Source: Trypanosoma brucei
Taxonomy: Eukaryota
NCBI GenBank assembly: GCA_000002445.1
Contig: CH464491.1
Span: 3,392,001 to 3,456,000, forward strand
DNA length: 64,000 bases
Direction of reading: 5' to 3'
In this document: piece by piece, positions 1 to 11,680 of the stretch
How positions within the stretch are numbered: position 1 is the first letter of the stretch
Layout of the letters: each line of letters starts with the position of its first letter
Notes under the pieces: generated by a model
Database searches by the model: none
Told to the model about the DNA's origin: nothing
The model's input: only the letters and a program-made list of their open reading frames with translations
Translations under genes and position numbers: made by a program

Positions 1-420
1 CCTTGGTGTCATTCACATCAGCAAGTTGTTTCCTTAGTTCCTTCAGTTCTTTTTCAATTAAAGCCTTGGAGTCATTTACATCACTTAGTTGCCTCCTCAG
101 TTCCTTCAGTTCCTTCTCCAGTGATGATTTGGAATCAGTCACATCACTCAGTTGCTTCCTCAGCTCCTTCAGTTCATTTTCCATTAACGCCTTAGAATCA
201 TTCACCCCACCGAGTTGCTTCTTTATACTGTCACTGCTTTCACCCTTTAGTTGACACTCAGGGCCACTTGATTTCTTTGTTTTTGTCTCAACTATCAGTT
301 CATCCAGCTCCTTCTCGAGTGACGCTTTAGAATCAGTTACTTCCAGTAGTTGCTGTTTCAACTCCTTAAGTTCTTTTTCCATTAACGCCTTCGATTCGCT
401 GAGGTTCCTTAATTGTTCTT
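1..420. repeat. Diverged copies of the 63-bp coding tandem repeat (same family as 2810..5230)
   Basis: Reading 1-420 shows a recurring ttccttcagttccttctc...gatgatttggaatcagtcacatcactcagttgc unit with many substitutions relative to the downstream array. Confidence 0.6.
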
Positions 421-949
421 CAATGTTGGAAAGGGAAGATGATTTCTGCTGATCTCCCTCTGTGTTGTGGCATCGTTCCTTTAAACTGTCCACTTTTCTG
501 TGCATATCAAATTCCACTGCAGAAGTATCAGTAGCTTCGCTTCTACGGGCGCTTCCTTTCGAGTTCTCTCTTGTGCCGAACCTCTCATCCACTTGAGAGT
601 TTGCATCAAGAGCACCGCATTCAATTGTCTGTCTGCCGCTTGAAAATGCACCCGCAGTAGTGAAGCGGGACATACTATGCGATGAAGAGCGTGCTGAAAA
701 TATTGTTGCGCCCCTTCGGAAATCCCTTCCAGTAGAGTGCCGTGCTAAATACTCCTCATTTTCAATCACCGCTCTACTGATAGTTTCAGTCTTCACAAAA
801 AGATCCTCCCAGGATGTGGAAACAGAATCATTTTCATCCGAACCCCTCGTTTTCCTCTTTTGCTCCACAAGACTCGCACCGTCACTTGCAGCAAGGCCGT
901 GGTCCGACCCATCTACCTCTTGGCTGCCGAACCACGTTTTACTCTCCAT
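1..949 (-). CDS. Partial CDS (N-terminal ~316 aa; the 3' end runs off the window at position 1): paralogue of the 21-aa-repeat coiled-coil protein, with a unique N-terminal region followed by diverged SKxxLEKELKELRKQL repeats
   Basis: Manual minus-strand translation from the ATG at 949..947 (an in-frame stop lies at 965..967) gives MVEGSK...MSRFTTAGAF...SESKALMEKELKELKQQLLEVTDSKASLEKELDEL...SDVTDSKSSLEKELKELRRQLSDVNDSKALIEKELKELRKQLADVNDTK. The frame stays open to position 1. The ORF track does not list it because it has no stop inside the window. Confidence 0.5.
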   Translation of the reverse strand, partial: MESKTWFGSQEVDGSDHGLAASDGASLVEQKRKTRGSDENDSVSTSWEDLFVKTETISRAVIENEEYLARHSTGRDFRRGATIFSARSSSHSMSRFTTAGAFSSGRQTIECGALDANSQVDERFGTRENSKGSARRSEATDTSAVEFDMHRKVDSLKERCHNTEGDQQKSSSLSNIEEQLRNLSESKALMEKELKELKQQLLEVTDSKASLEKELDELIVETKTKKSSGPECQLKGESSDSIKKQLGGVNDSKALMENELKELRKQLSDVTDSKSSLEKELKELRRQLSDVNDSKALIEKELKELRKQLADVNDTK

Positions 950-1628
950 CACCTCACCGGAAATTCAACCACTGATGTTGATATTGACTCGGAGAGGTCA
1001 GCACACAGCTATTACCGGTGCCTTCTTATCCTTTCCTATCCAGAACCCAAAACGCCCCCACCTCTTTTTCACTAATCCTTGCTCGTTACTATGACTACGC
1101 TGCACAAAGAAATACCGTTTGCAAGCCTGACAAATGGGGAAAAGGGCTACAGAGTGGAGCACTACAGTGGAAAATACGTGTGCGGTATAAGCACACAGCG
1201 ACAGGAAGACACAACAGCCTCGGTCAGTTCGTTACAAACCCCAGAAGCTCAGAGATGCGGTACCTTCATACCCAACAGGTATGCACAAGGCAGCAACATA
1301 CAGAAACGAGTTGAAGAAGAAAGGAAAAAAGGAAAAAAGGAAAAAAGTAAGCAAACAATTACATACTCGGGAAGTGCTATACCTCTTCAAAATACAGAAA
1401 CGTGGTCGGCGCACCACCAATATCATATTAGACAAGAATGCCGTGCAGCGCCGGCCGCAACGCTCCAAATCACTTTAACGTCCACACAACGAAATACCGG
1501 AATGACGCTGAAAATGGTAGTAGCGCTTGGAGCGAAGCGCCCACCTACGCTATTTCCCGAAAACAAGCACAAATACAGGCAGTAATCTGCAATAGCTCAA
1601 TGAAGGCGGTAAAGCACATGAGATACAG

Positions 1629-3107
1629 CTAACGGAGTTCGTAACGTTTATATACAGTAGATCCAACAGCAAGGACGAGCATCCCCACCGCAGAGGCTGA
1701 GAACGCAGCAGCCTCCTTCCACTCGGATATACCTCCCTCCTGCACGTACGCTGCAGCAACAGCGGGAGAGCAGCGCTGCAGCGCAGCAAGCATTGCCTCA
1801 TGCCGATTCTGGCGCTGCTTGTGCATGTCGTCCAAAAGTTTCCGCACGTTGAATAACATTAAACGCACCCTGTCTTGCATCTGTTGAAGAAGGTCATTCG
1901 GGGCGGAAACTCCACTCGACAGGACCCGTGACTCACCCGAACCTTCGCAGTGCTCGTGGCGCGGTGACACCATCAAACAATCCAGCTCCTCCCCGACCGC
2001 GTCGATTCGGGCTTGCAGTAAACGAAGATTCTCATCTTGCCGTTTCCATGTCCCCTCAGCCCTCATTACACGGCGCTTATAATCACTTGCAGCAGCCTGC
2101 AGCTCTGTGCGCGCCCCATAGTTATCCCCTGAGTCGCTGTGCCTCTCAGCTAGTTGCATCACACGCTTGAAATGCCGAGCCTCCTTTATGCACGGAGCGA
2201 TCTGTGAAACAACCTTGCCACAGCGCTGAATATCCCTTTCGATTGCCTTAATCTTCCTCAGTAGCAGCACGATTGGAGCACCCAGCGATTGCAGAGCAGA
2301 GATGTTATAGCTTTCCGCATTCTCCCCGGCACCCTCATCCGAGTTCGTTGTATGACAAAATTCACCATCCACCGCACGTTTGCTCCGTCTCCTCCGCTGG
2401 GAGGGTCGGTCATGAAGAACAGTGCCAAGTTCAGAATGTCCGTGAACAGCACAGTCAAACTCAAAATAATCTTCCGCCAGTCCGCTCTCAGCACCCACGA
2501 CAGATGTATCATAGGAACTATCAAGGGAATCCTCCAAACTACATGACCCCTCACCTTCTGAAAAATTAGCAAGCTTTGCCTGCGCAAAATCAACGTCAGC
2601 AGAACAAGATTTTTCGTTCGGGGAACATGTGAGCTTTACCACATTTTTCGAAATGTCCCTCCCTGCATTTATTTCATTCAACTGCTTCATTAGTACAGCG
2701 TTTTCTTCATTGAGTTTTCCAAGTTCAGTATGAAAAGGGTCACTAAACTTGGCACCACCCTCCATTTCATTAAGGTTTTCAGGCGCCTCTTTCGAATAAT
2801 GCTCCTCGGCAAGTTGCTTTTTCAGTTCCTTCTCCAGTGCTGCCTTAGAACCATTAACATCACTCAGTTGCTTCCTCAGTTCCTTCAGTTCCTTCTCGAG
2901 TGATGATTTGGAACCAGCCACATCACTCGGTTGCTTCCTCAGTTCCTTAAGTTCCTTCTCGAGTGATGATTTGGAACCAGTCACATCACTCAGTTGCTTC
3001 TTCAGTTCCTTCAGTTCCTTCTCGAGTGATGATTTGGAACCAGTCACATCACTCAGTTGCTTCCTCAGCTCCTTCTCCTTCTCGAGTGATGATTTGGAAC
3101 CAGTCAC
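1629..3107 (-). CDS. C-terminal part of the repeat protein: the last repeats, then a non-repetitive domain ending in a hydrophobic tail (AAFSASAVGMLVLAVGSTVY-KRYELR). It is probably the frameshifted continuation of 3125..7024.
   Basis: The ORF track shows repeats at the N-terminus in a different frame from the upstream ORF. The nucleotide repeat array runs continuously across 3107-3125. The C-terminal 20 residues form a hydrophobic segment followed by basic residues, which is tail-anchor-like. Confidence 0.5.
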   Translation of the reverse strand: MTGSKSSLEKEKELRKQLSDVTGSKSSLEKELKELKKQLSDVTGSKSSLEKELKELRKQPSDVAGSKSSLEKELKELRKQLSDVNGSKAALEKELKKQLAEEHYSKEAPENLNEMEGGAKFSDPFHTELGKLNEENAVLMKQLNEINAGRDISKNVVKLTCSPNEKSCSADVDFAQAKLANFSEGEGSCSLEDSLDSSYDTSVVGAESGLAEDYFEFDCAVHGHSELGTVLHDRPSQRRRRSKRAVDGEFCHTTNSDEGAGENAESYNISALQSLGAPIVLLLRKIKAIERDIQRCGKVVSQIAPCIKEARHFKRVMQLAERHSDSGDNYGARTELQAAASDYKRRVMRAEGTWKRQDENLRLLQARIDAVGEELDCLMVSPRHEHCEGSGESRVLSSGVSAPNDLLQQMQDRVRLMLFNVRKLLDDMHKQRQNRHEAMLAALQRCSPAVAAAYVQEGGISEWKEAAAFSASAVGMLVLAVGSTVYKRYELR

Positions 3108-5230
3108 ATCACTCAGTTGCTTCTTCAGTTCCTTCTCTCGAGTGATGATTTGGAACCAGCCACATCACTCAGTTGCTTCCTCAGTTCCTTCAGTTCCTTC
3201 TCGAGTGATGATTTGGAATCAGCCACATCACTCAGTTGCTTCCCCAGTTCCTTCTCGAGTGATGATTTGGAACCAGCCACATCACTCAGTTGCTTCCTCA
3301 GTTCCTTCAGTTCCTTCTCGAGTGATGATTTGGAACCAGTCACATCACTCAGTTGCTTCCTCAGTTCCTTCAGTTCCTTCTCGAGTGATGATTTGGAACC
3401 AGTCACATCACTCAGTTGCTTCTTCAGTTCCTTCAGTTCCTTCTCGAGTGATGATTTGGAACCAGCCACATCACTCAGTTGCTTCCTCAGTTCCTTCAGT
3501 TCCTTCTCAAGTGATGATTTGGAACCAGTCACATCACTCAGTTGCTTCTTCAGTTCCTTCAGTTCCTTCTCGAGTGATGATTTGGAACCAGCCACATCAC
3601 TCAGTTGCTTCTTCAGTTCCTTCAGTTCCTTCTCGAGTGATGATTTGGAACCAGCCACATCACTCGGTTGCTTCCCCAGTTCCTTCTCGAGTGATGATTT
3701 GGAACCAGCCACATCACTCAGTTGCTTCCTCAGTTCCTTCAGTTCCTTCTCGAGTGATGATTTGGAACCAGTCACATCACTCAGTTGCTTCCTCAGTTCC
3801 TTCTCGAGTGATGATTTGGAATCAGCCACATCACTCGGTTGCTTCCTCAGTTCCTTCAGTTCCTTCTCGAGTGATGATTTGGAACCAGCCACATCACTCA
3901 GTTGCTTCCTCAGTTCATCCGGCTCCTTCTCGAGTGATGATTTGGAATCAGCCACATCACTCAATTGCTTCCTCAGTTCCTTCAGTTCCTTCTCGAGTGA
4001 TGATTTGGAACCAGCCACATCACTCAGTTGCTTCCTCAGTTCCTTCAGTTCCTTCTCGAGTGATGATTTGGAATCAGCCACATCACTCAGTTGCTTCCTC
4101 AGTTCCTTCAGTTCCTTCTCGAGTGATGATTTGGAACCAGCCACATCACTCAGTTGCTTCCTCAGTTCCTTCAGTTCCTTCTCGAGTGACGATTTGGAAT
4201 CAGCCACATCACTCAGTTGCTTCCTCAGTTCCTTCAGTTCCTTCTCGAGTGATGATTTGGAACCAGCCACATCACTCAGTTGCTTCCTCAGTTCCTTCTC
4301 GAGTGATGATTTGGAATCAGCCACATCACTCAGTTGCTTCCTCAGTTCCTTCAGTTCCTTCTCGAGTGATGATTTGGAACCAGCCACATCACTCAGTTGC
4401 TTCCTCAGTTCCTTCTCGAGTGACGATTTGGAACCAGCCACATCACTCAGTTGCTTCCTCAGTTCCTTCAGTTCCTTCTCGAGTGATGATTTGGAACCAG
4501 CCACATCACTCAGTTGCTTCCTCAGTTCCTTCTCGAGTGACGATTTGGAACCAGCCACATCACTCAGTTGCTTCTTCAGTTCATCCGGCTCCTTCTCGAG
4601 TGATGATTTGGAACCAGCCACATCACTCAGTTGCTTCCTCAGTTCCTTCTCGAGTGACGATTTGGAATCAGCCACATCACTCAGTTGCTTCCTCAGTTCC
4701 TTCAGTTCCTTCTCGAGTGATGATTTGGAACCAGTCACATCACTCGGTTGCTTCCTCAGTTCCTTCAGTTCCTTCTCGAGTGATGATTTGGAATCAGCCA
4801 CATCACTCGGTTGCTTCCTCAGTTCCTTCAGTTCCTTCTCGAGTGATGATTTGGAACCAGCCACATCACTCAGTTGCTTCCTCAGTTCCTTCTCGAGTGA
4901 TGATTTGGAATCAGCCACATCACTCAGTTGCTTCCTCAGTTCCTTCAGTTCCTTCTCGAGTGATGATTTGGAACCAGCCACATCACTCGGTTGCTTCCTC
5001 AGTTCCTTCAGTTCCTTCTCGAGTGATGATTTGGAATCAGTCACATCACTCAGTTGCTTCCTCAGTTCCTTCAGTTCTTTTTCCATCAATGCCCTCGACT
5101 CTGTCACCTTGTTCAGCTGCTTTTTTAGCTCCTTTTCTAGAAGCGTCATTGATCCAGTCATCTCGCTGAGTTGCTCGTTTAGTCCCCTCATTTCTCCTTT
5201 CAATGACGCCTCTAATTTTTCTCTGTTCAT
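2810..5230. repeat. Tandem array of a 63-bp coding repeat (with 54-bp variants lacking one KEL), about 38 units, highly homogenised
   Basis: There is a direct visible periodicity: ttcctcagttccttcagttccttctcgagtgatgatttggaaccagccacatcactcagttgc. Point variants give A/T/D and R/K substitutions. The plus-strand ORFs of 753 and 714 aa over this region are antisense artefacts of a repeat that contains no stop codons. Confidence 0.9.
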
Positions 5231-7024
5231 TTCTTGCTTTTCATTTTTCTTTTTGTCTTGAAGGTGGTTTTGTGACATCTGTTCATCGCATTGCGCCGTA
5301 TGGAAAATTGCCGTTGAAGTATTGCCAGACTGCCTTATTTTTTCCTCACAGTTTTTTGTGATGCTGTGCAGCTGTCGACTGCTATCTCTCGTTTGGTTAA
5401 CATCTTTGTGTGACTGAGCAATTGGTTGCATCCGCTGCCGTTTCGAATCTGCATCGGCGCACGATGATTGCTGTGGAGAGTCTTCATTTCTAAGGCGGTG
5501 GTGGCGCACCTGCAGTGGACTTTTGTCGAGGTGGCCCCACTGTGATCGGGTAATTTTACCCTCGTCGCGCTTTGCACTGTCGTGCACCGGGGAACTACTT
5601 TCACCTTGATGGATATAACGTGCACGATAGGGCGTACTGGTTCTGATTGTTGACCTCGCTGAAGGGCTAGATCGCGGAGATGGGCGGTGGAGCCCAGAAC
5701 CTGGGGATCCGTTTCTGCACAAAACGGTAGTGAACAGATTACATAGCCTTGCGTACTGGTCGCTGGTCAGGTCAACAGTGTCCTGAGAACGTTGTGACCG
5801 ACCGATGGTACAGAGCACACTTGAGTGTAAGATACGTTGGTGCTGCCGAGTTAACGATCGGACCCATGTCTTGGCAGCAAATCTTTCCACCGACACAAAT
5901 TCATCGTAGGCCCGCGGCGGAGTACATGCACGCTCGCTTGGATGAACATGATCCATTCTCGGTGCTCGAGCCCCATAGCGGCTTGGGCTCTTCCATCGGG
6001 AACAAGCTACCCCACGGTGATCAGTGTTTTCAAGGCGTTCGTAGTTATTCCATAATGAACGTATTTCTCGTGTAATGACATCCAACCGCTTGCGCACTTG
6101 TTCTACACGGTGTTGAAGATGAGTCGCGTCCTCGCCGGACTGTTGCACATCGCGTAAGTGGTGCTCGTGCCAATTCACGCAAATCATCCTCATATTAGCC
6201 ACGACCCACTGTTGCACGGAGCCAAGTGCATGACTCCCTTTGAGGGCTTCCTCGTACGTAAAGTTCAGAGAGTTAGTGTACTGTGAAACGAGTTCGTCGT
6301 GGCACTCCTTGCTGATGGTCAGCGGGTCAAACTGCATCAGCACCTGCAGTATCCCAGCACGGTGCAGAAAAGGCTGCATCTCACTCCATGTGCGCCTCCT
6401 CTCACCAAGCAGTACCATTACTAATCCCATGACACGCACGACAATATCCGGGGGTGTTCGGTACGACACAAGCTCTCTCCAATGCCGAGCATCGACCTGG
6501 CGCACCACGTGGCAGGCGTGCCTAAGCTGCATCTCAGCCTCTCGCTTCTTCGTGGCAACATCCAGATTTTTCATAGAAAGCTCACGATATAATTTTGCGC
6601 GCTCTTGCGAAAGCCGAACCGCTTCGTCTCTGTGCTGAATCAGCTGGGACTGTAGAGGAGGAATCCGTAGCAGAAGTTCGCGTCCCTCCTCCGTCGTTAC
6701 GGCAGCCAGGGCTTTTGTCAGCGGGCAGGCACCTCCCTCCTGATCACTTGGTACCAGAGGTTCTATGTACAAAGAGCGGCAAACAACATCGCTGCACACA
6801 ATTCCTAGGCTGCAACGCCACATGCCAGAAGATCGCTCAATGTATTCATACGCCACAATGTCGTCAGGGGCGACCTGAGGAAAGGAGTCCTGCCGCCACT
6901 GGAACTCCTCCAACCCCGATAAAAATTCACCATCGTCGCCCACGGCAAATAGTGGTGCTATAGTAAGGATTGAAGGTTGGTCACTGCCTGCCATTGTGCC
7001 TTCTTCTGGTATATTTACCTCCAT
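3125..7024 (-). CDS. Large coiled-coil protein: N-terminal ~560-aa domain containing a dynein-stalk/microtubule-binding-domain-like segment, then about 38 tandem 21-aa repeats (KSSLEKELKELRKQLSDVAGS, with 18-aa variants). A +2 frameshift truncates it at 3125.
   Basis: This is a 1323-codon ORF. The ORF-track start at 7096 is a TTG; the first in-frame ATG is at 7024 (MEVNIPEEG...). The stop at 3125 coincides with an extra CT in one repeat unit (ttccttctctcgagtg instead of ttccttctcgagtg). Confidence 0.65.
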   Translation of the reverse strand: MEVNIPEEGTMAGSDQPSILTIAPLFAVGDDGEFLSGLEEFQWRQDSFPQVAPDDIVAYEYIERSSGMWRCSLGIVCSDVVCRSLYIEPLVPSDQEGGACPLTKALAAVTTEEGRELLLRIPPLQSQLIQHRDEAVRLSQERAKLYRELSMKNLDVATKKREAEMQLRHACHVVRQVDARHWRELVSYRTPPDIVVRVMGLVMVLLGERRRTWSEMQPFLHRAGILQVLMQFDPLTISKECHDELVSQYTNSLNFTYEEALKGSHALGSVQQWVVANMRMICVNWHEHHLRDVQQSGEDATHLQHRVEQVRKRLDVITREIRSLWNNYERLENTDHRGVACSRWKSPSRYGARAPRMDHVHPSERACTPPRAYDEFVSVERFAAKTWVRSLTRQHQRILHSSVLCTIGRSQRSQDTVDLTSDQYARLCNLFTTVLCRNGSPGSGLHRPSPRSSPSARSTIRTSTPYRARYIHQGESSSPVHDSAKRDEGKITRSQWGHLDKSPLQVRHHRLRNEDSPQQSSCADADSKRQRMQPIAQSHKDVNQTRDSSRQLHSITKNCEEKIRQSGNTSTAIFHTAQCDEQMSQNHLQDKKKNEKQEMNREKLEASLKGEMRGLNEQLSEMTGSMTLLEKELKKQLNKVTESRALMEKELKELRKQLSDVTDSKSSLEKELKELRKQPSDVAGSKSSLEKELKELRKQLSDVADSKSSLEKELRKQLSDVAGSKSSLEKELKELRKQPSDVADSKSSLEKELKELRKQPSDVTGSKSSLEKELKELRKQLSDVADSKSSLEKELRKQLSDVAGSKSSLEKEPDELKKQLSDVAGSKSSLEKELRKQLSDVAGSKSSLEKELKELRKQLSDVAGSKSSLEKELRKQLSDVAGSKSSLEKELKELRKQLSDVADSKSSLEKELRKQLSDVAGSKSSLEKELKELRKQLSDVADSKSSLEKELKELRKQLSDVAGSKSSLEKELKELRKQLSDVADSKSSLEKELKELRKQLSDVAGSKSSLEKELKELRKQLSDVADSKSSLEKEPDELRKQLSDVAGSKSSLEKELKELRKQPSDVADSKSSLEKELRKQLSDVTGSKSSLEKELKELRKQLSDVAGSKSSLEKELGKQPSDVAGSKSSLEKELKELKKQLSDVAGSKSSLEKELKELKKQLSDVTGSKSSLEKELKELRKQLSDVAGSKSSLEKELKELKKQLSDVTGSKSSLEKELKELRKQLSDVTGSKSSLEKELKELRKQLSDVAGSKSSLEKELGKQLSDVADSKSSLEKELKELRKQLSDVAGSKSSLERRN

Positions 7025-8343: not shown

Positions 8344-8985
8344 CTAGCCCTTCCACGTTGCTTTCCGCCCAGTAGTGCGGTCATAGAGGCGGGTAATAGC
8401 TTCCATTACGAGACGCATGCGGTACTTAATACGCAACGCCTCCTTACTAAGCCGCGCCGCCCTCTCACGCAACAATCTCTCGCGCCTCTGCAAAAAGACG
8501 AGTGCCTCATCACGGAACATAGGTAGCACAACCCCGCAACCAAGGTTCACCCACATCCGGCTGGCATCTGTCACCGTGCACTGCACGAAAAAGTGATTAC
8601 CCAAGTCAACCATTATGTGATTACGTTGTTGTACACTGACATCTCCAGAGGTGCTTCCTGCACCCCTCACTACAGTTGCATTACCTACAGATTGTTTGCC
8701 TTCCCCCGCCGCCACTGCTGCCGACACTGTCAGGGCTGTAGACGACCCCTCGTCACGCCTAATAAATGAGTGTGTAGAGGAAAGAGACTGCATCTCATCG
8801 AAAAGACTGCGCAACTGACAACAATTGGAGGCCATGTTGTACACTTCGTCCCTCTGTGCCAGGACCCGCGCTAACGATTGTCGTAATACGGCATCCAAAA
8901 AGTGCTCCAGCCGTAGCATACTCCCCATAGCCGCATCCGCTGGCGCATGAGAGGGGTCACTTTCCCCCCTTGACACACCAGACAT
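8344..8985 (-). CDS. Prefoldin alpha-type subunit-like protein (coiled coil, beta hairpin, coiled coil)
   Basis: The segment NHIMVDLGNHFFVQCTVTDASRMWVNLGCGVVLPMFRDEALVFL resembles the two beta-hairpins of prefoldin-alpha/UXT-type proteins, and it is flanked by helical coiled-coil stretches. The ORF-track start at 9000 is a TTG; the first ATG is at 8985. Confidence 0.45.
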   Translation of the reverse strand: MSGVSRGESDPSHAPADAAMGSMLRLEHFLDAVLRQSLARVLAQRDEVYNMASNCCQLRSLFDEMQSLSSTHSFIRRDEGSSTALTVSAAVAAGEGKQSVGNATVVRGAGSTSGDVSVQQRNHIMVDLGNHFFVQCTVTDASRMWVNLGCGVVLPMFRDEALVFLQRRERLLRERAARLSKEALRIKYRMRLVMEAITRLYDRTTGRKATWKG

Positions 8986-9870
8986 TACAACTAGCGGCAA
9001 TTATGCGGCAACAAACAAAACACAGCTCACCCTCCGTGTCACCAGCACGCTGTCCCCGCAGGCTTTCTTCAAACGGGAAAAATAGCGGAATGTCAAAAGG
9101 GGCAGACACTGCAGCAGTGCGTTACAACTAGGCGCTGGCTGTTGCTAACTCGGAACTCAGTAACCAAGGGAACCCTACGCAGTGCTAAGCAATCAGTAAA
9201 GCGCAATTACTAGAAAAACTGAGCAAATAACCGCAAAAGACGTAAGGTAAGATAAAAATGGGGAAACCTAGTATTTCTGTCTGTGCATTTACCAGTTTCG
9301 TTATCGAACTGACCGGGCACGTAGAGCCTGGCTTGGAGATGGGGTAATAAAAGGAAAACATCTCACTCATAATATAGAGATTGTTTCACTGTTCTCACCC
9401 CCAATCCTCCATGCCCGTCCGCAAGATGAAGGAATCCAGAAAGAAAAAAAAAAACATATACAAAAGGGGTGTTGGAAACCAGAGTGACAACCCTCATTGC
9501 TCCGGAAAACACCGATGCACAATTAATCGGCAACCAAATGGCGATATCACCGTTCACACACACGCATACACACAAACATAACCCGCTCCCATCACGTTGG
9601 ACACCAGCACCACCGCTTACGTGCGATAGACAGCTAATGCACAGAAGCTCCTCCGAGGGCGCCAACCCAACTTGACGCAGCCCACGAGCTCCCAACCAAC
9701 ACCGTCAGTGATAATTCACACGTGTCGCTCGAACGCCACCATCAAATTTCGGTGCTGATGCAGAACAAAAGAATGGGATCCTTACCGCAACAGATTGAAC
9801 GCTAGCAAAAAGTCCTCCGCGCGCGGACCCCGCCTCTTTGTCTTACCGCTCGTCTCATAACTAAAAGCAA

Positions 9871-11163
9871 CTACAAGTCGTTCATGCTATGCGGGTCCGC
9901 ACCAGCATCAAGCACAATCTCGCCCACCTTTTCATCAAGGTGGAAGCGCGCCCACACCCTCCGATCATGGCCGTGCTCGTCAAAATACTTCAATAACAGT
10001 GACAGCAAGCTGTCCTCCACAGCTCGACGCAGTGCGTGACCATTTTCACGTCCCTCCCATACCTCGCGATACCTTTCTACAAGGAATGATACAGCAACAT
10101 CATCAATGCTACTCGCAACGACGCCTCCGCCGTATGCATTTGGGCCCGCGAATCCATAGCGATACGCGGTGCACGGAAGAGTTATCACAGTAGTCCGCAC
10201 CATTTCCTCTGCTGAGCGCTTCGAAAACGCCGCAAACGCCAGTGTCCGCACGAATGCAGGCACAAAGGAGCCATACAGAGAATTGAACTCCATCCGCACC
10301 ATCTTCTCAACCTCCACCACGCTTTTCCCAAATGTGCGACCTTGCTTCCCAAAGTCTGTTGTGACTATCACAGTGAGTTCTTTAAGTGATGGTAAGTCGG
10401 CGGCCTGCCCCTCGAAGCGGTCCGCACGACCAAACAGCGGCGCGAGCAGCGCAACAAGCGAAGGGTGCATGGCGTTAAGGTCGTCCAGCAGCACGATACC
10501 GTGAGGGTACTTGCGCTGGTGCTCAGTGATTTTCCTTACCAAGAGGTTCAAACCATCCCTTCCCTCCAGGCCACCAAAGCCAGTACCGGATATGACGAGC
10601 ATATTGTCACCAGAGTCACACTGCCGCCCACGCGAGTTCGCACAGCGCAGCGATGTGGCCAATGACAGTAACCGAGCAGTATGGGTCTTACCGACGCCGT
10701 TATCGCCAGCAAAGTGGAGAACGAGAGGCTCATGTGGGTACGAAAGCTTCTTGCGCATTAGGGAAGCAATAGCTTCGGTTAGATGCCCCTGGCCCACTAG
10801 GCGGGTGCGCAGAAGCTCTTCCACGTTGCTTATCGCAAGACGGCGCGCCTTGTCATCAGTTGCGAAGGGCAACTCCCGTGACACCAATCTGGAAGGAAGC
10901 TTGGACATCCAACAATAAAGTTGGCTGCTGCTCAACCACTTGTACCTCGAGCAGACGGGAGCCGGGGGACAGGTCGGCTCACTGGTGTCCGCTACAACCT
11001 CATCCACCGTACTTCGTACGTCAGCCCCTGCTACGGAGGGTTCTACCGCGGTTAGAAGCACGCATAGGAACAGAATCACAAAGAGGGAAACGGAAGAGTG
11101 TCTATCATCCCCCTCAACACCAACGACAGAAGAAGAGCCAAACGGGTATCCCGAATGGGGCAT
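9871..11163 (-). CDS. Torsin-like / ClpB-D2-like single-domain AAA+ ATPase with an N-terminal hydrophobic signal anchor
   Basis: Walker A is PLVLHFAGDNGVGKTHTARLL. Walker B with the ClpB/torsin-type motif is GIVLLDDLNAMHPSLVALLAPLF. The upstream LVGQGHLTEAIASLMRKK resembles the torsin LFGQHLA region. The hydrophobic stretch VSLFVILFLCVLLTAV lies near the N-terminus. The ORF-track start at 11187 is a GTG; the first ATG is at 11163. Confidence 0.5.
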   Translation of the reverse strand: MPHSGYPFGSSSVVGVEGDDRHSSVSLFVILFLCVLLTAVEPSVAGADVRSTVDEVVADTSEPTCPPAPVCSRYKWLSSSQLYCWMSKLPSRLVSRELPFATDDKARRLAISNVEELLRTRLVGQGHLTEAIASLMRKKLSYPHEPLVLHFAGDNGVGKTHTARLLSLATSLRCANSRGRQCDSGDNMLVISGTGFGGLEGRDGLNLLVRKITEHQRKYPHGIVLLDDLNAMHPSLVALLAPLFGRADRFEGQAADLPSLKELTVIVTTDFGKQGRTFGKSVVEVEKMVRMEFNSLYGSFVPAFVRTLAFAAFSKRSAEEMVRTTVITLPCTAYRYGFAGPNAYGGGVVASSIDDVAVSFLVERYREVWEGRENGHALRRAVEDSLLSLLLKYFDEHGHDRRVWARFHLDEKVGEIVLDAGADPHSMNDL

Positions 11164-11680
11164 CGAATAGTGGATAACACTGCACACCTTGAAGCTGATT
11201 TATGTGTGACTATGCGGGGAGGAGGGGTGAATTCTTCTCCACGCTCGCTTGACAGACACCCTCCTGATTTCAGTTGCTGATATCCCACGCCCAGCAGTAG
11301 TGGACTAATATCCACCCCTCTCCCTGCACCCTTAAGCAGCTCCACGGGCGCTTGGGGAACCGACCAATATTCTCTCTGTGAGTTAAATATATGTATCTAA
11401 ATTCTATTTGAACACACACGCAGCTTGTGTTCCACCTATTCCAGACACAGACGCGTGGCGCAAGTCGATAGGGCAAGCGGAGAAAATGTTACGAACGTCA
11501 TCAAAAGAAGCAACAGTGCACCACGTCCTGCGCCAACCAGACCCGCATGACACACAAAAAAACAACACCAGGACGAAGTAACGCACAATCACGCCGTGTA
11601 TTTGCGCGAAAAAAAATACGTAAGACCACGCCCGCCCGCCTTCCTGCACAGTATGGCCTTTTCTTTCCATCCGATCACTT

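What the first reader, a model, noticed from the sequence alone, without database searches (positions are those of the whole stretch)
1629..1700. C-terminal tail-anchor-like hydrophobic segment on the repeat protein
The last 26 residues, AAAFSASAVGMLVLAVGSTVYKRYELR, form a single hydrophobic helix followed by a short basic tail. That is the hallmark of tail-anchored (GET/TRC40-inserted) membrane proteins such as golgins and KASH-like tethers. Combined with the N-terminal MTBD-like domain and a rod predicted to be hundreds of angstroms long, the protein looks like a membrane-to-microtubule tether.
Basis: inference. Interest (0 to 1): 0.5.

Follow-up and report, generated by a model that had tools for sequence, protein, structure and literature searches.

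The report
Tail anchor on trypanosome microtubule-binding protein
A roughly 200 kDa Trypanosoma brucei repeat protein with a motor-less dynein microtubule-binding head really does end in a conserved single membrane-anchor helix, but that helix looks like a mitochondrial outer-membrane anchor, not a GET-inserted Golgi or nuclear-envelope one, so the protein may tie the mitochondrion to microtubules.

Summary
On the minus strand the ORF ends AAAFSASAVGMLVLAVGSTVYKRYELR* at window 1629-1712, slightly longer than the 1629-1700 reported. It is the only TM-grade hydrophobic stretch in about 1,800 residues. It is non-amphipathic and lies 6 residues from the C-terminus. It is also the best-conserved part of the C-terminal domain in T. 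congolense, T. vivax, T. theileri and T. conorhini (...YK[RQ]Y[ES]L-x).

The window is T. brucei-group chromosome 11, next to Tb927.11.12910. The frameshift worry is largely resolved. It is one extra dinucleotide in 1 of 35 repeat units. T. b. equiperdum has an uninterrupted 1,360-aa ORF, and T. congolense a 1,076-aa protein, each joining the dynein stalk/MTBD head to this tail.

Tail anchor: yes. GET/TRC40: no, because T. brucei lacks that pathway. Golgin or KASH: no.

Moderate hydrophobicity plus a short basic tail fits a mitochondrial outer-membrane signal. By position and orthogroup, Tb927.11.12880 (POMP17, outer-membrane proteome; "microtubule structures 2" in hyperLOPIT) is this gene or its tandem paralogue. 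That assignment is inferred, not proven.

Best model: a static mitochondrion-to-microtubule tether, analogous to syntaphilin. Membrane insertion and localisation of this exact protein remain untested.

The parts
1629..7024 (-). Gene A: whole coding region (ATG at 7024-7022, stop at 1631-1629). It is split in this window by one 2-nt frameshift; once corrected it encodes 1,797 aa, about 202 kDa, pI 8.7.
   Evidence: The intact orthologous ORF in T. b. equiperdum (1,360 aa, fewer repeats) is shown.
1650..1712 (-). Predicted tail-anchor transmembrane helix, AAAFSASAVGMLVLAVGSTVY (21 uncharged residues).
   Evidence: KD19 1.80, Eisenberg <H> 0.60 and muH 0.12. Conserved in five other Trypanosoma sequences. 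AF2 predicts a helix (197-228) after a low-confidence hinge, with pLDDT 47-59 against 85-94 for the preceding bundle, suggesting it is not packed against it; no PAE or contact data were available.
1632..1649 (-). Short basic post-TMD tail, KRYELR (net +2). It is part of the conserved YK[RQ]Y[ES]L-x terminus.
   Evidence: (Y223, K224, Y226 and L228 are invariant in 6 sequences).
1629..1631 (-). Stop codon (TAG).
1713..2813 (-). Non-repeat C-terminal domain: an acidic, low-complexity stretch followed by a helical bundle that precedes the tail anchor.
   Evidence: AF2 gives bundle pLDDT of 85-94. Foldseek against the PDB finds no informative match.
2821..5122 (-). Array of about 37 units of 63 or 54 nt, encoding 21- or 18-residue repeats (LEKELKELRKQLSDVAGSKSS). 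This is the coiled-coil-like rod.
   Evidence: The T. b. equiperdum allele has only about 17 units.
3135..3138 (-). Frameshift site. The unit starting at 3155 is 56 nt instead of 54 because of an extra GA in CTCGAGAGAAGG (TC/CT on the plus strand). The upstream frame stops at 3125-3127.
   Evidence: All 34 other anchored units have lengths that are multiples of three.
5230..6000 (-). Basic linker rich in Ser, Arg, Pro and Thr (pI about 10) between the MTBD head and the repeats.
6035..6592 (-). Dynein-type coiled-coil stalk plus microtubule-binding domain (residues 145-330). No AAA+ motor modules are present.
   Evidence: Pfam PF12777 at 27.3 bits, above the cut-off of 24. PDB 5AYH/3WUQ at E=5.5e-11. 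58% identical over 320 aa, without gaps, to T. congolense P0004.
1..949 (-). 5' part of tandem paralogue gene B (MESKTWFGSQ...). It runs into the same kind of 21-aa repeats and continues beyond the window edge.
   Evidence: Gene B-type proteins end in the same tail-anchor domain in T. b. gambiense (P0011...AVGSIMFGRYELR) and in T. vivax.

Best explanation
The segment is the transmembrane tail anchor of a Trypanosoma-specific cytosolic protein of about 200 kDa.

The protein has four parts:
- a motor-less dynein stalk/MTBD head at the N-terminus;
- a basic linker;
- a strain-variable rod of 21/18-residue repeats;
- a small helical bundle followed by one moderately hydrophobic C-terminal helix and a 6-7 residue basic, conserved tail (YKRYEL-x).

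Proposed mechanism (inferred): the protein is made in the cytosol and inserted post-translationally. GET cannot be the route, because T. brucei lacks it. The bulk of the protein faces the cytosol. The signal type favours the mitochondrial outer membrane: a moderately hydrophobic TMD rich in Gly, Ala and Ser plus a short positive tail, as in Fis1 or Bcl-XL. The published proteomic placement of the family agrees. The MTBD head would then bind (probably subpellicular) microtubules, making the protein a static mitochondrion-to-microtubule tether.

What is shown here: the sequence features, their conservation, and the single-polypeptide architecture in close relatives.

What is inferred: membrane insertion, the identity of the membrane, microtubule binding and the tether function.

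In the window itself the gene carries a 2-nt frameshift in one repeat. This is most likely an assembly or sequencing slip, or a very recent lesion.
For: Tail-anchor features and chance test.

Conservation: the tail is the best-kept block across T. congolense, T. vivax, T. theileri and T. conorhini.

Structure: AF2 gives a terminal helix (pLDDT 47-59) after a low-confidence hinge, following a confident bundle (pLDDT 85-94); no PAE or contact data were available.

Same polypeptide as the MTBD:
- intact 1,360-aa ORF in T. b. equiperdum;
- the 1,076-aa T. congolense protein;
- in T. theileri and T. conorhini the MT-domain and tail-anchor pieces lie in the same locus, separated only by N gaps;
- the frameshift is one dinucleotide in 1 of 35 units.

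MTBD homology.

No GET pathway in T. brucei: PMC12956874.

Locus identity:
- SepSecS is Tb927.11.13070.
- Oligopeptidase B is Tb927.11.12850.
- The prefoldin gene immediately upstream of this gene is Tb927.11.12910.
- The orthogroup containing Tb927.11.12880/12870 has two to three members in T. congolense and T. vivax.

Proteomics:
- Tb927.11.12880 is POMP17 of the mitochondrial outer-membrane proteome (PMC6686227; POMP definition).
- hyperLOPIT classes Tb927.11.12880 as 'microtubule structures 2' (p 0.999 and 0.995).
- hyperLOPIT classes its unplaced copies Tb11.v5.0365/0366 as 'mitochondrion - OM' by TAGM-MCMC (0.70 and 0.97) (PMC10361982 supplements).
Against: - No TM predictor (TMHMM, DeepTMHMM, Phobius) could be run. 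The simple Hessa sum is +2.3 kcal/mol.
- TriTrypDB lists 0 TM domains for the paralogue copies Tb11.v5.0365/0366. It is unknown whether those gene models include the tail.
- The link between this gene and Tb927.11.12880 rests on gene order, ID numbering and orthogroup membership, not on a sequence match. POMP17 may be the tandem paralogue (gene B) rather than this MTBD-bearing gene. The multi-TM gene downstream is a remote alternative.
- hyperLOPIT calls for the family are inconsistent between data sets: ER 0.77, mitochondrial IM 0.40, and several 'unknown'.
- The window's copy has a frameshift. If it is real, the tail is not translated from this gene in this strain.
- No MT domain was found in the T. 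vivax locus.
Confidence: 0.55

Rival explanations
1. It is a tail anchor, but for the ER, nuclear envelope or Golgi, as the first reader proposed (golgin- or KASH-like). The protein would then link an endomembrane to microtubules.
For: A long coiled coil plus a tail anchor is the architecture of tail-anchored golgins. One hyperLOPIT replicate gave 'endoplasmic reticulum' 0.77 for Tb11.v5.0366, and DeepLoc guessed Golgi for it. In trypanosomes the ER also lies along subpellicular microtubules (general knowledge).
Against: TMD hydrophobicity is at the low end (KD19 1.63-2.01 across the family) and the tail is basic. That is the mitochondrial rather than the ER pattern (established tail-anchor sorting rules). 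The GET pathway is absent from T. brucei. There is no KASH peptide. POMP17 and the TAGM-MCMC 'mitochondrion - OM' allocations point elsewhere.
Confidence: 0.15
2. The hydrophobic C-terminal helix is not membrane-spanning. It would be a protein-protein interface, for example the dimerisation end of the coiled coil or a docking helix for a membrane receptor. Membrane or cytoskeleton association would then be peripheral.
For: Hydrophobicity is moderate (Hessa sum +2.3). The segment is rich in Ala, Ser and Gly, with Gly residues 7 apart (G212/G219). Sequence conservation goes beyond mere hydrophobicity. TriTrypDB gives a TM count of 0 for the v5 paralogues.
Against: The run is 20-22 uncharged residues in all seven sequences, with a very low hydrophobic moment of 0.03-0.12, so it is not amphipathic. 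AF2 gives no sign that it packs on the bundle: the helix has pLDDT 47-59 after a hinge below 50, though no PAE or contact data were available. Small-residue motifs are also typical of interacting TM helices. The family is recovered in an outer-membrane proteome.
Confidence: 0.15
3. In the strain sequenced here the gene is a pseudogene. The 2-nt insertion is real, so a 1,300-aa MTBD-repeat protein without the tail is made, and the tail-anchor domain is only expressed from the paralogue, gene B.
For: The frameshift is present in the window. The homologue search with the N-terminal 590 residues returned no T. brucei-group protein model at all, only the T. conorhini protein P0003. No gene is called over this region in the T. 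b. equiperdum record, even though the ORF there is intact.
Against: Both flanking frames are fully open (1,323 and 492 codons) and the downstream frame is conserved to its last residue. A dinucleotide slip inside a 2.3-kb array of near-identical repeats is a typical assembly or sequencing error. The T. b. equiperdum allele, 98-99% identical, is intact.
Confidence: 0.2
4. It is a tail anchor for glycosomes (a PEX19-dependent peroxisomal tail-anchored protein), or is dually targeted to glycosomes and mitochondria.
For: Moderately hydrophobic TMDs with basic tails also specify peroxisomal tail-anchored proteins. Trypanosome Msp1 is dually localised. PEX19/PEX38 handle membrane proteins in the absence of GET.
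Against: Tail charge is only 0 to +2. Peroxisomal tail-anchored tails are usually more basic (established knowledge). No glycosomal classification appears in any hyperLOPIT output seen.
Confidence: 0.05

Closest known systems
Syntaphilin (SNPH), the mammalian static anchor of axonal mitochondria
   Same: A C-terminal membrane anchor in the mitochondrial outer membrane plus a direct, motor-independent microtubule-binding region. It works as a dock rather than a transporter (established knowledge).
   Different: No sequence relationship. Syntaphilin's microtubule-binding region is not a dynein MTBD, and it has no long repeat rod. Function is untested here.
Fis1 / Bcl-XL type mitochondrial outer-membrane tail anchors
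   Same: A moderately hydrophobic TMD of about 20 residues rich in Gly and Ala, followed by a short positively charged tail.
   Different: The cytosolic domains are unrelated. The conserved YK[RQ]Y[ES]L terminus is specific to this family.
Tail-anchored golgins (giantin, golgin-84, CASP) and KASH-domain nesprins
   Same: A very long coiled-coil rod projecting into the cytosol from a single C-terminal TMD, with a tethering logic.
   Different: No homology. No KASH luminal peptide (the tail is only 6-7 residues). The GET route used by such proteins is missing in T. brucei. Proteomics of the family does not place it in Golgi or nuclear envelope.
Dynein heavy chain stalk and microtubule-binding domain (Pfam PF12777)
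   Same: Residues 145-330 match the CC1-MTBD-CC2 region (27.3 bits; E=5.5e-11 to mouse cytoplasmic dynein 5AYH/3WUQ). In the printed HMMER alignment the query TPP aligns with the dynein NPP, and the query QW with the dynein KW before CC2.
   Different: No AAA+ ring, linker or tail, so it is not a motor. Some relatives are mis-annotated as 'dynein heavy chain, cytosolic, partial' (T. conorhini).
S. pombe Mmb1 and ER-microtubule linkers such as CLIMP-63
   Same: Organelle-bound proteins that bind microtubules directly in order to position an organelle (established knowledge).
   Different: Different folds and membrane topologies, and no homology.
POMP17 (Tb927.11.12880), T. brucei mitochondrial outer-membrane proteome
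   Same: Same chromosomal neighbourhood and same orthogroup as the tandem pair. It is probably this gene or its paralogue, which shares the repeats and the tail-anchor domain.
   Different: Identity was not proven by sequence. No paper in the searchable library describes its domain architecture or function.

Membership tests
Tail-anchored (TA) membrane proteins | A single TMD whose end lies within about 30 residues of the C-terminus. | tested here: met
   A 21-residue uncharged run ends 6 residues before the stop. KD19 is 1.80, <H> 0.60 and muH 0.12. No other segment in about 1,800 aa exceeds KD19 1.36.
Tail-anchored (TA) membrane proteins | No N-terminal signal peptide or other TMD; the bulk of the protein is cytosolic. 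| tested here: met
   The N-terminus is acidic (MEVNIPEEGTMAGSDQPS...) and the strongest N-terminal window scores only KD19 1.36. TriTrypDB lists 'No signal peptide' for the paralogue copies. No dedicated signal-peptide predictor was run.
Tail-anchored (TA) membrane proteins | Actual post-translational membrane integration (carbonate-resistant, C-terminus translocated). | not testable with these tools
   Needs fractionation and protease protection. The only indirect support is recovery of Tb927.11.12880 in an outer-membrane proteome.
GET/TRC40 client proteins | The organism has the GET3/TRC40 targeting machinery. | tested here: not met
   [quoted passage not shown] This comes from the literature, not from my own search.
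GET/TRC40 client proteins | A highly hydrophobic TMD. | tested here: not met
KASH-domain proteins | A TMD followed by a luminal KASH peptide of about 30 residues ending in a PPPX-like motif that binds SUN. | tested here: not met
   The post-TMD tail is 6-7 residues (KRYELR) in all family members.
Mitochondrial outer-membrane TA signal | A short to moderate TMD of moderate hydrophobicity, flanked C-terminally by a few basic residues. | tested here: met
   Tail net charge is +2 in T. brucei gene A, T. vivax and T. conorhini, +1 in T. congolense and the gambiense B-like copy, and 0 in T. theileri.
Mitochondrial outer-membrane TA signal | Experimental localisation to the outer membrane. | tested here: inconclusive
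   Tb927.11.12880 is POMP17, and Tb11.v5.0365/0366 are classed 'mitochondrion - OM' at 0.70 and 0.97. However, the mapping of those IDs to this exact gene is positional, and other hyperLOPIT calls differ.
Dynein heavy chain | A stalk coiled coil with an MTBD. | tested here: met
   PF12777 at 27.3 bits, above the cut-off of 24. 5AYH/3WUQ at E=5.5e-11.
Dynein heavy chain | Six AAA+ modules, a linker and a tail. | tested here: not met
   The Pfam scan of both non-repeat halves (the N-terminal 671 aa and the C-terminal 394 aa) found no family above its cut-off other than MT, and the stretch between them is the 21/18-residue repeat array. The corrected 1,797-aa sequence is head, linker, repeats and tail-anchor domain.

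The most novel reading that the evidence does not exclude
Trypanosomes have taken the microtubule-binding tip of dynein, without its motor, and fused it to a strain-variable repeat rod and a mitochondrial outer-membrane tail anchor. The rod would be roughly 50-110 nm long if fully helical. The result would be a dedicated static tether holding the single mitochondrion against the subpellicular microtubule corset. A tandem paralogue (gene B) shares the rod and the anchor but carries a different head.
Probability: 0.35. Interest if true: 0.7.

Novelty: new variant of a known kind. Interest (0 to 1): 0.45.

Why it matters
How the single, cell-long trypanosome mitochondrion is held in register with the subpellicular microtubule array is not understood. 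I found no paper in the searchable library describing a direct outer-membrane-to-microtubule linker in kinetoplastids.

This gene offers a concrete, testable candidate with separable modules: an MTBD head, a rod of variable length and a tail anchor. It also shows that a dynein MTBD can exist outside a motor.

Practical points:
- The result corrects mis-annotations such as 'dynein heavy chain, cytosolic, partial'.
- It flags a probable frameshift error in a repeat.
- Because T. brucei lacks GET, the tail is a useful substrate for asking how tail-anchored proteins are sorted there (pATOM36, PEX19/PEX38, or unassisted insertion).

Tried and rejected
1. GET/TRC40 insertion. Rejected because the pathway is absent in T. 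brucei.

2. GPI-anchor signal. Rejected because there is no N-terminal signal peptide, the hydrophobic run is followed by a charged tail, and the paralogue copies are scored 'Not GPI-Anchored'.

3. The divergent T. equiperdum OVI tail (...AVGSFTAFIELLQITACICACFREIA). I first read this as a 30-nt deletion. It is an artefact of a 15-N assembly gap at L002 1279-1293.

4. Fold search of the AF2 model of the C-terminal domain against the PDB. Only generic helical bundles came back, best E=4.9e-3, with syntaxin-like hits not significant. The afdb50 library was unavailable.

5. Homologue searches.
- The word-indexed searches returned very few trypanosome proteins and no T. brucei model for the N-terminal head.
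- The exhaustive profile search found the family only in Trypanosoma.

6. Searches for the gene in the literature.
- Repeat peptide: nothing.
- TEOVI ID: nothing.
- Neighbouring Tb927 IDs: only Tb927.11.12880 appears.
- POMP17: one paper.
- TrypTag supplements as held: no hit.
- The Niemann 2013 outer-membrane proteome paper and the Pyrih 2023 paper are not held.

7. Exact-product look-up of a possible C-terminal fragment model: not on record.

Gene B's own C-terminus is therefore inferred from T. b. gambiense and T. vivax only.
Full report
**What is in the window**

The window is nuclear DNA of the Trypanosoma brucei group. The C-terminal domain is about 100% identical to T. equiperdum TEOVI_000455800. 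Neighbouring ORFs are identical to T. b. brucei TREU927 and T. equiperdum proteins.

All genes read on the minus strand. Neighbours include a DEAD-box helicase (mt-LAF2), MYG1, a P4-ATPase, NFACT, SepSecS and EF1-gamma.

The locus can be placed on chromosome 11 from three published IDs:
- SepSecS is Tb927.11.13070.
- Oligopeptidase B, which lies just downstream of the locus in relatives, is Tb927.11.12850.
- The prefoldin-like gene at 8344-9000, immediately upstream of the gene of interest, is Tb927.11.12910.

**The observation**

The minus-strand ORF 1629-3107 ends ...EWKEAAAFSASAVGMLVLAVGSTVYKRYELR*. The exact span of the 27 residues plus stop is 1629-1712, so the finding's end coordinate (1700) and residue count (26) are slightly short.

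Properties of the hydrophobic run:
- It is 21 uncharged residues long.
- Its best 19-residue Kyte-Doolittle mean is 1.80, against 1.36 or less everywhere else in the protein.
- Its Eisenberg mean hydrophobicity is 0.60.
- Its helical moment is only 0.12.

Only 0.17% of shuffles of the C-terminal domain place such a window in the last 30 residues. Hydrophobicity is moderate, not high; an unweighted Hessa sum is +2.3 kcal/mol.

**Conservation**

A profile search of 1.84 billion representative proteins, plus locus retrieval, found the same C-terminal domain only in Trypanosoma:
- T. congolense (two proteins)
- T. vivax
- T. theileri
- T. conorhini
- T. b. gambiense

.

Overall identity falls to 25-53%. 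Even so, every sequence keeps a 20-22 residue uncharged run followed by YK[RQ]Y[ES]L-x. S207, L214, G219, Y223, K224, Y226 and L228 are invariant in the six-sequence alignment.

AlphaFold2 on this alignment gives a confident helical bundle (pLDDT 85-94), a low-confidence hinge, and then a terminal helix at pLDDT 47-59. That pattern is what a membrane helix modelled out of its membrane tends to look like, but no PAE or contact data were available to confirm that it is unpacked.

**Is the tail attached to the MTBD?**

The upstream ORF (ATG at 7024) carries a genuine dynein stalk/MTBD:
- Pfam PF12777 scores 27.3 bits against a cut-off of 24.
- Mouse cytoplasmic dynein stalk/MTBD structures match at E=5.5e-11.

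The two ORFs are separated by a frameshift inside the repeat array. I dissected the array on a fixed anchor. Of 35 units, 25 are 63 nt, 8 are 54 nt and 1 is 60 nt. Only one is out of frame, at 56 nt, because of an extra GA in CTCGAGAGAAGG at 3135-3138. Deleting two bases gives one ORF of 1,797 aa, about 202 kDa.

Relatives show the joined architecture:
- The gap-free T. b. equiperdum chromosome carries the same gene (98-99% identical) as a single uninterrupted 1,360-aa ORF. It runs from MEVNIPEEG... through the MT domain and about 17 repeats to ...STVYKRYELR*.
- T. congolense TCIL3000_11_13290 (1,076 aa) also joins the MT domain, which is 58% identical over 320 aa, to the tail.
- In T. theileri and T. 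conorhini the two halves lie in the same locus, separated only by runs of N.

Whether the dinucleotide is real in the sequenced strain remains open.

**Which membrane?**

A 2026 study reports no clear homologues of canonical GET/TRC components in T. brucei (PMC12956874).

The signal itself is the classical mitochondrial outer-membrane type:
- The TMD is moderately hydrophobic and rich in Gly, Ala and Ser (KD19 1.63-2.01).
- It is followed by a 6-7 residue tail of net charge 0 to +2.

Published proteomics points the same way:
- Tb927.11.12880 is POMP17 of the outer-membrane proteome (POMP definition).
- hyperLOPIT classes Tb927.11.12880 as 'microtubule structures 2' (p 0.999 in one replicate, 0.995 in the 33-plex PCF map).
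- hyperLOPIT allocates the unplaced copies Tb11.v5.0365/0366 to 'mitochondrion - OM' by TAGM-MCMC (0.70 and 0.97).

An outer-membrane signal combined with a microtubule signal is what a mitochondrion-to-microtubule tether would give.

**How firm is the ID link?**

It is positional, not sequence-based.

In relatives the gene order is: prefoldin, gene A (MT head + repeats + tail anchor), a multi-TM gene, DUF4464, oligopeptidase B.

In the brucei group a second gene, B, sits between gene A and the multi-TM gene:
- It starts MESKTWFGSQ at window 949.
- Its N-terminus is shared with the multi-TM gene.
- B-type genes end in the same tail-anchor domain in T. b. gambiense (...AVGSIMFGRYELR) and in T. 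vivax.

Tb927.11.12880 and Tb927.11.12870 share an orthogroup. POMP17 is therefore gene A or gene B. Both carry the rod and the tail-anchor domain, so shared peptides would blur the distinction in proteomics.

There is one discordant item. TriTrypDB lists 0 predicted TM domains and no Pfam domain for Tb11.v5.0365/0366. Either those models lack the tail or TMHMM misses it.

**Mechanism proposed (inferred)**

- The tail anchor inserts post-translationally into the mitochondrial outer membrane.
- The conserved YKRYEL-x peptide faces the intermembrane space.
- The helical bundle, the repeat rod and the basic linker project into the cytosol. The rod is about 37 units here and about 17 in T. b. equiperdum.
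- The dynein-type MTBD at the tip binds microtubules.

The closest functional analogues are syntaphilin and S. pombe Mmb1. The architecture resembles tail-anchored golgins. Neither similarity reflects homology.

**Rivals**

- An ER or Golgi tail anchor.
- A non-membrane interaction helix.
- Pseudogenisation in this strain.
- Glycosomal targeting.

**Novelty**

The protein is catalogued only as a conserved hypothetical protein (POMP17 or its paralogue). No paper in the searchable library describes its architecture or a kinetoplastid outer-membrane-to-microtubule tether.

I rate it a new variant of a known kind: a tail-anchored organelle tether that uses an orphan dynein MTBD. Interest is moderate.

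Noticed in passing
window 1-949 (minus strand), continuing beyond the window edge: A second gene (B) lies directly downstream. It starts MESKTWFGSQ and runs into the same 21-aa repeats. About its first 105 residues are shared with the N-terminus of the multi-TM gene further downstream (T. b. gambiense P0032; also homologous to the T. conorhini 809-aa gene). B-type genes end in the same tail-anchor domain in T. b. gambiense and T. vivax. It looks like a head-swapped tandem paralogue created by segmental duplication.
   Followed up: partly
window 2821-5122 versus L007 18716-19815: Repeat copy number differs about two-fold between near-identical strains: about 37 units here against about 17 in T. 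b. equiperdum. The predicted rod length is therefore polymorphic.
   Followed up: partly
L002 1279-1293 (T. equiperdum OVI): The deposited protein TEOVI_000455800 has an aberrant C-terminus (...AVGSFTAFIELLQITACICACFREIA) because the gene model reads across a 15-N assembly gap. The conserved STVYKRYELR end is lost in the model only.
   Followed up: yes
L005 7119-7322 and 7820-10795 (T. vivax): T. vivax has a B-type gene whose repeats are broken by frameshifts. It also has a stray 68-residue copy of the tail-anchor end upstream (56% identical), and no detectable MT domain between the prefoldin gene and that copy. Gene A may be degenerate or mis-assembled in that species.
   Followed up: partly
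L004 (T. b. gambiense chromosome 11, 4.345-4.367 Mb): The gambiense copy of the tail-anchor domain gene (P0011) and the MESK/multi-TM 'fragment' gene sit between N gaps, far from the syntenic DEAD-box and MYG1 genes by accession order. This is probably a misplaced contig of this repeat-rich locus.
   Followed up: no
window 1650-1712 (protein positions G212 and G219 of the 229-aa domain alignment): G219 is invariant and G212 is conserved in most sequences; they are seven residues apart. Together with S207, this suggests a helix-helix packing face inside the TMD, possibly TMD dimerisation matching a dimeric coiled coil.
   Followed up: no
window 1316-1347: A (GAAAAAAG)4 microsatellite lies in the intergenic region between gene A's stop and gene B's start.
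   Followed up: no
window 9871-11187 (minus strand): A 430-438 aa protein with no Pfam match. By position it is Tb927.11.12920, which hyperLOPIT classes as endoplasmic reticulum. I did not look further.
   Followed up: no
L001 1344-3266 (T. conorhini): The orthologue is annotated 'dynein heavy chain, cytosolic, partial'. This is misleading, because it only has the stalk/MTBD and belongs to this tail-anchored family.
   Followed up: yes
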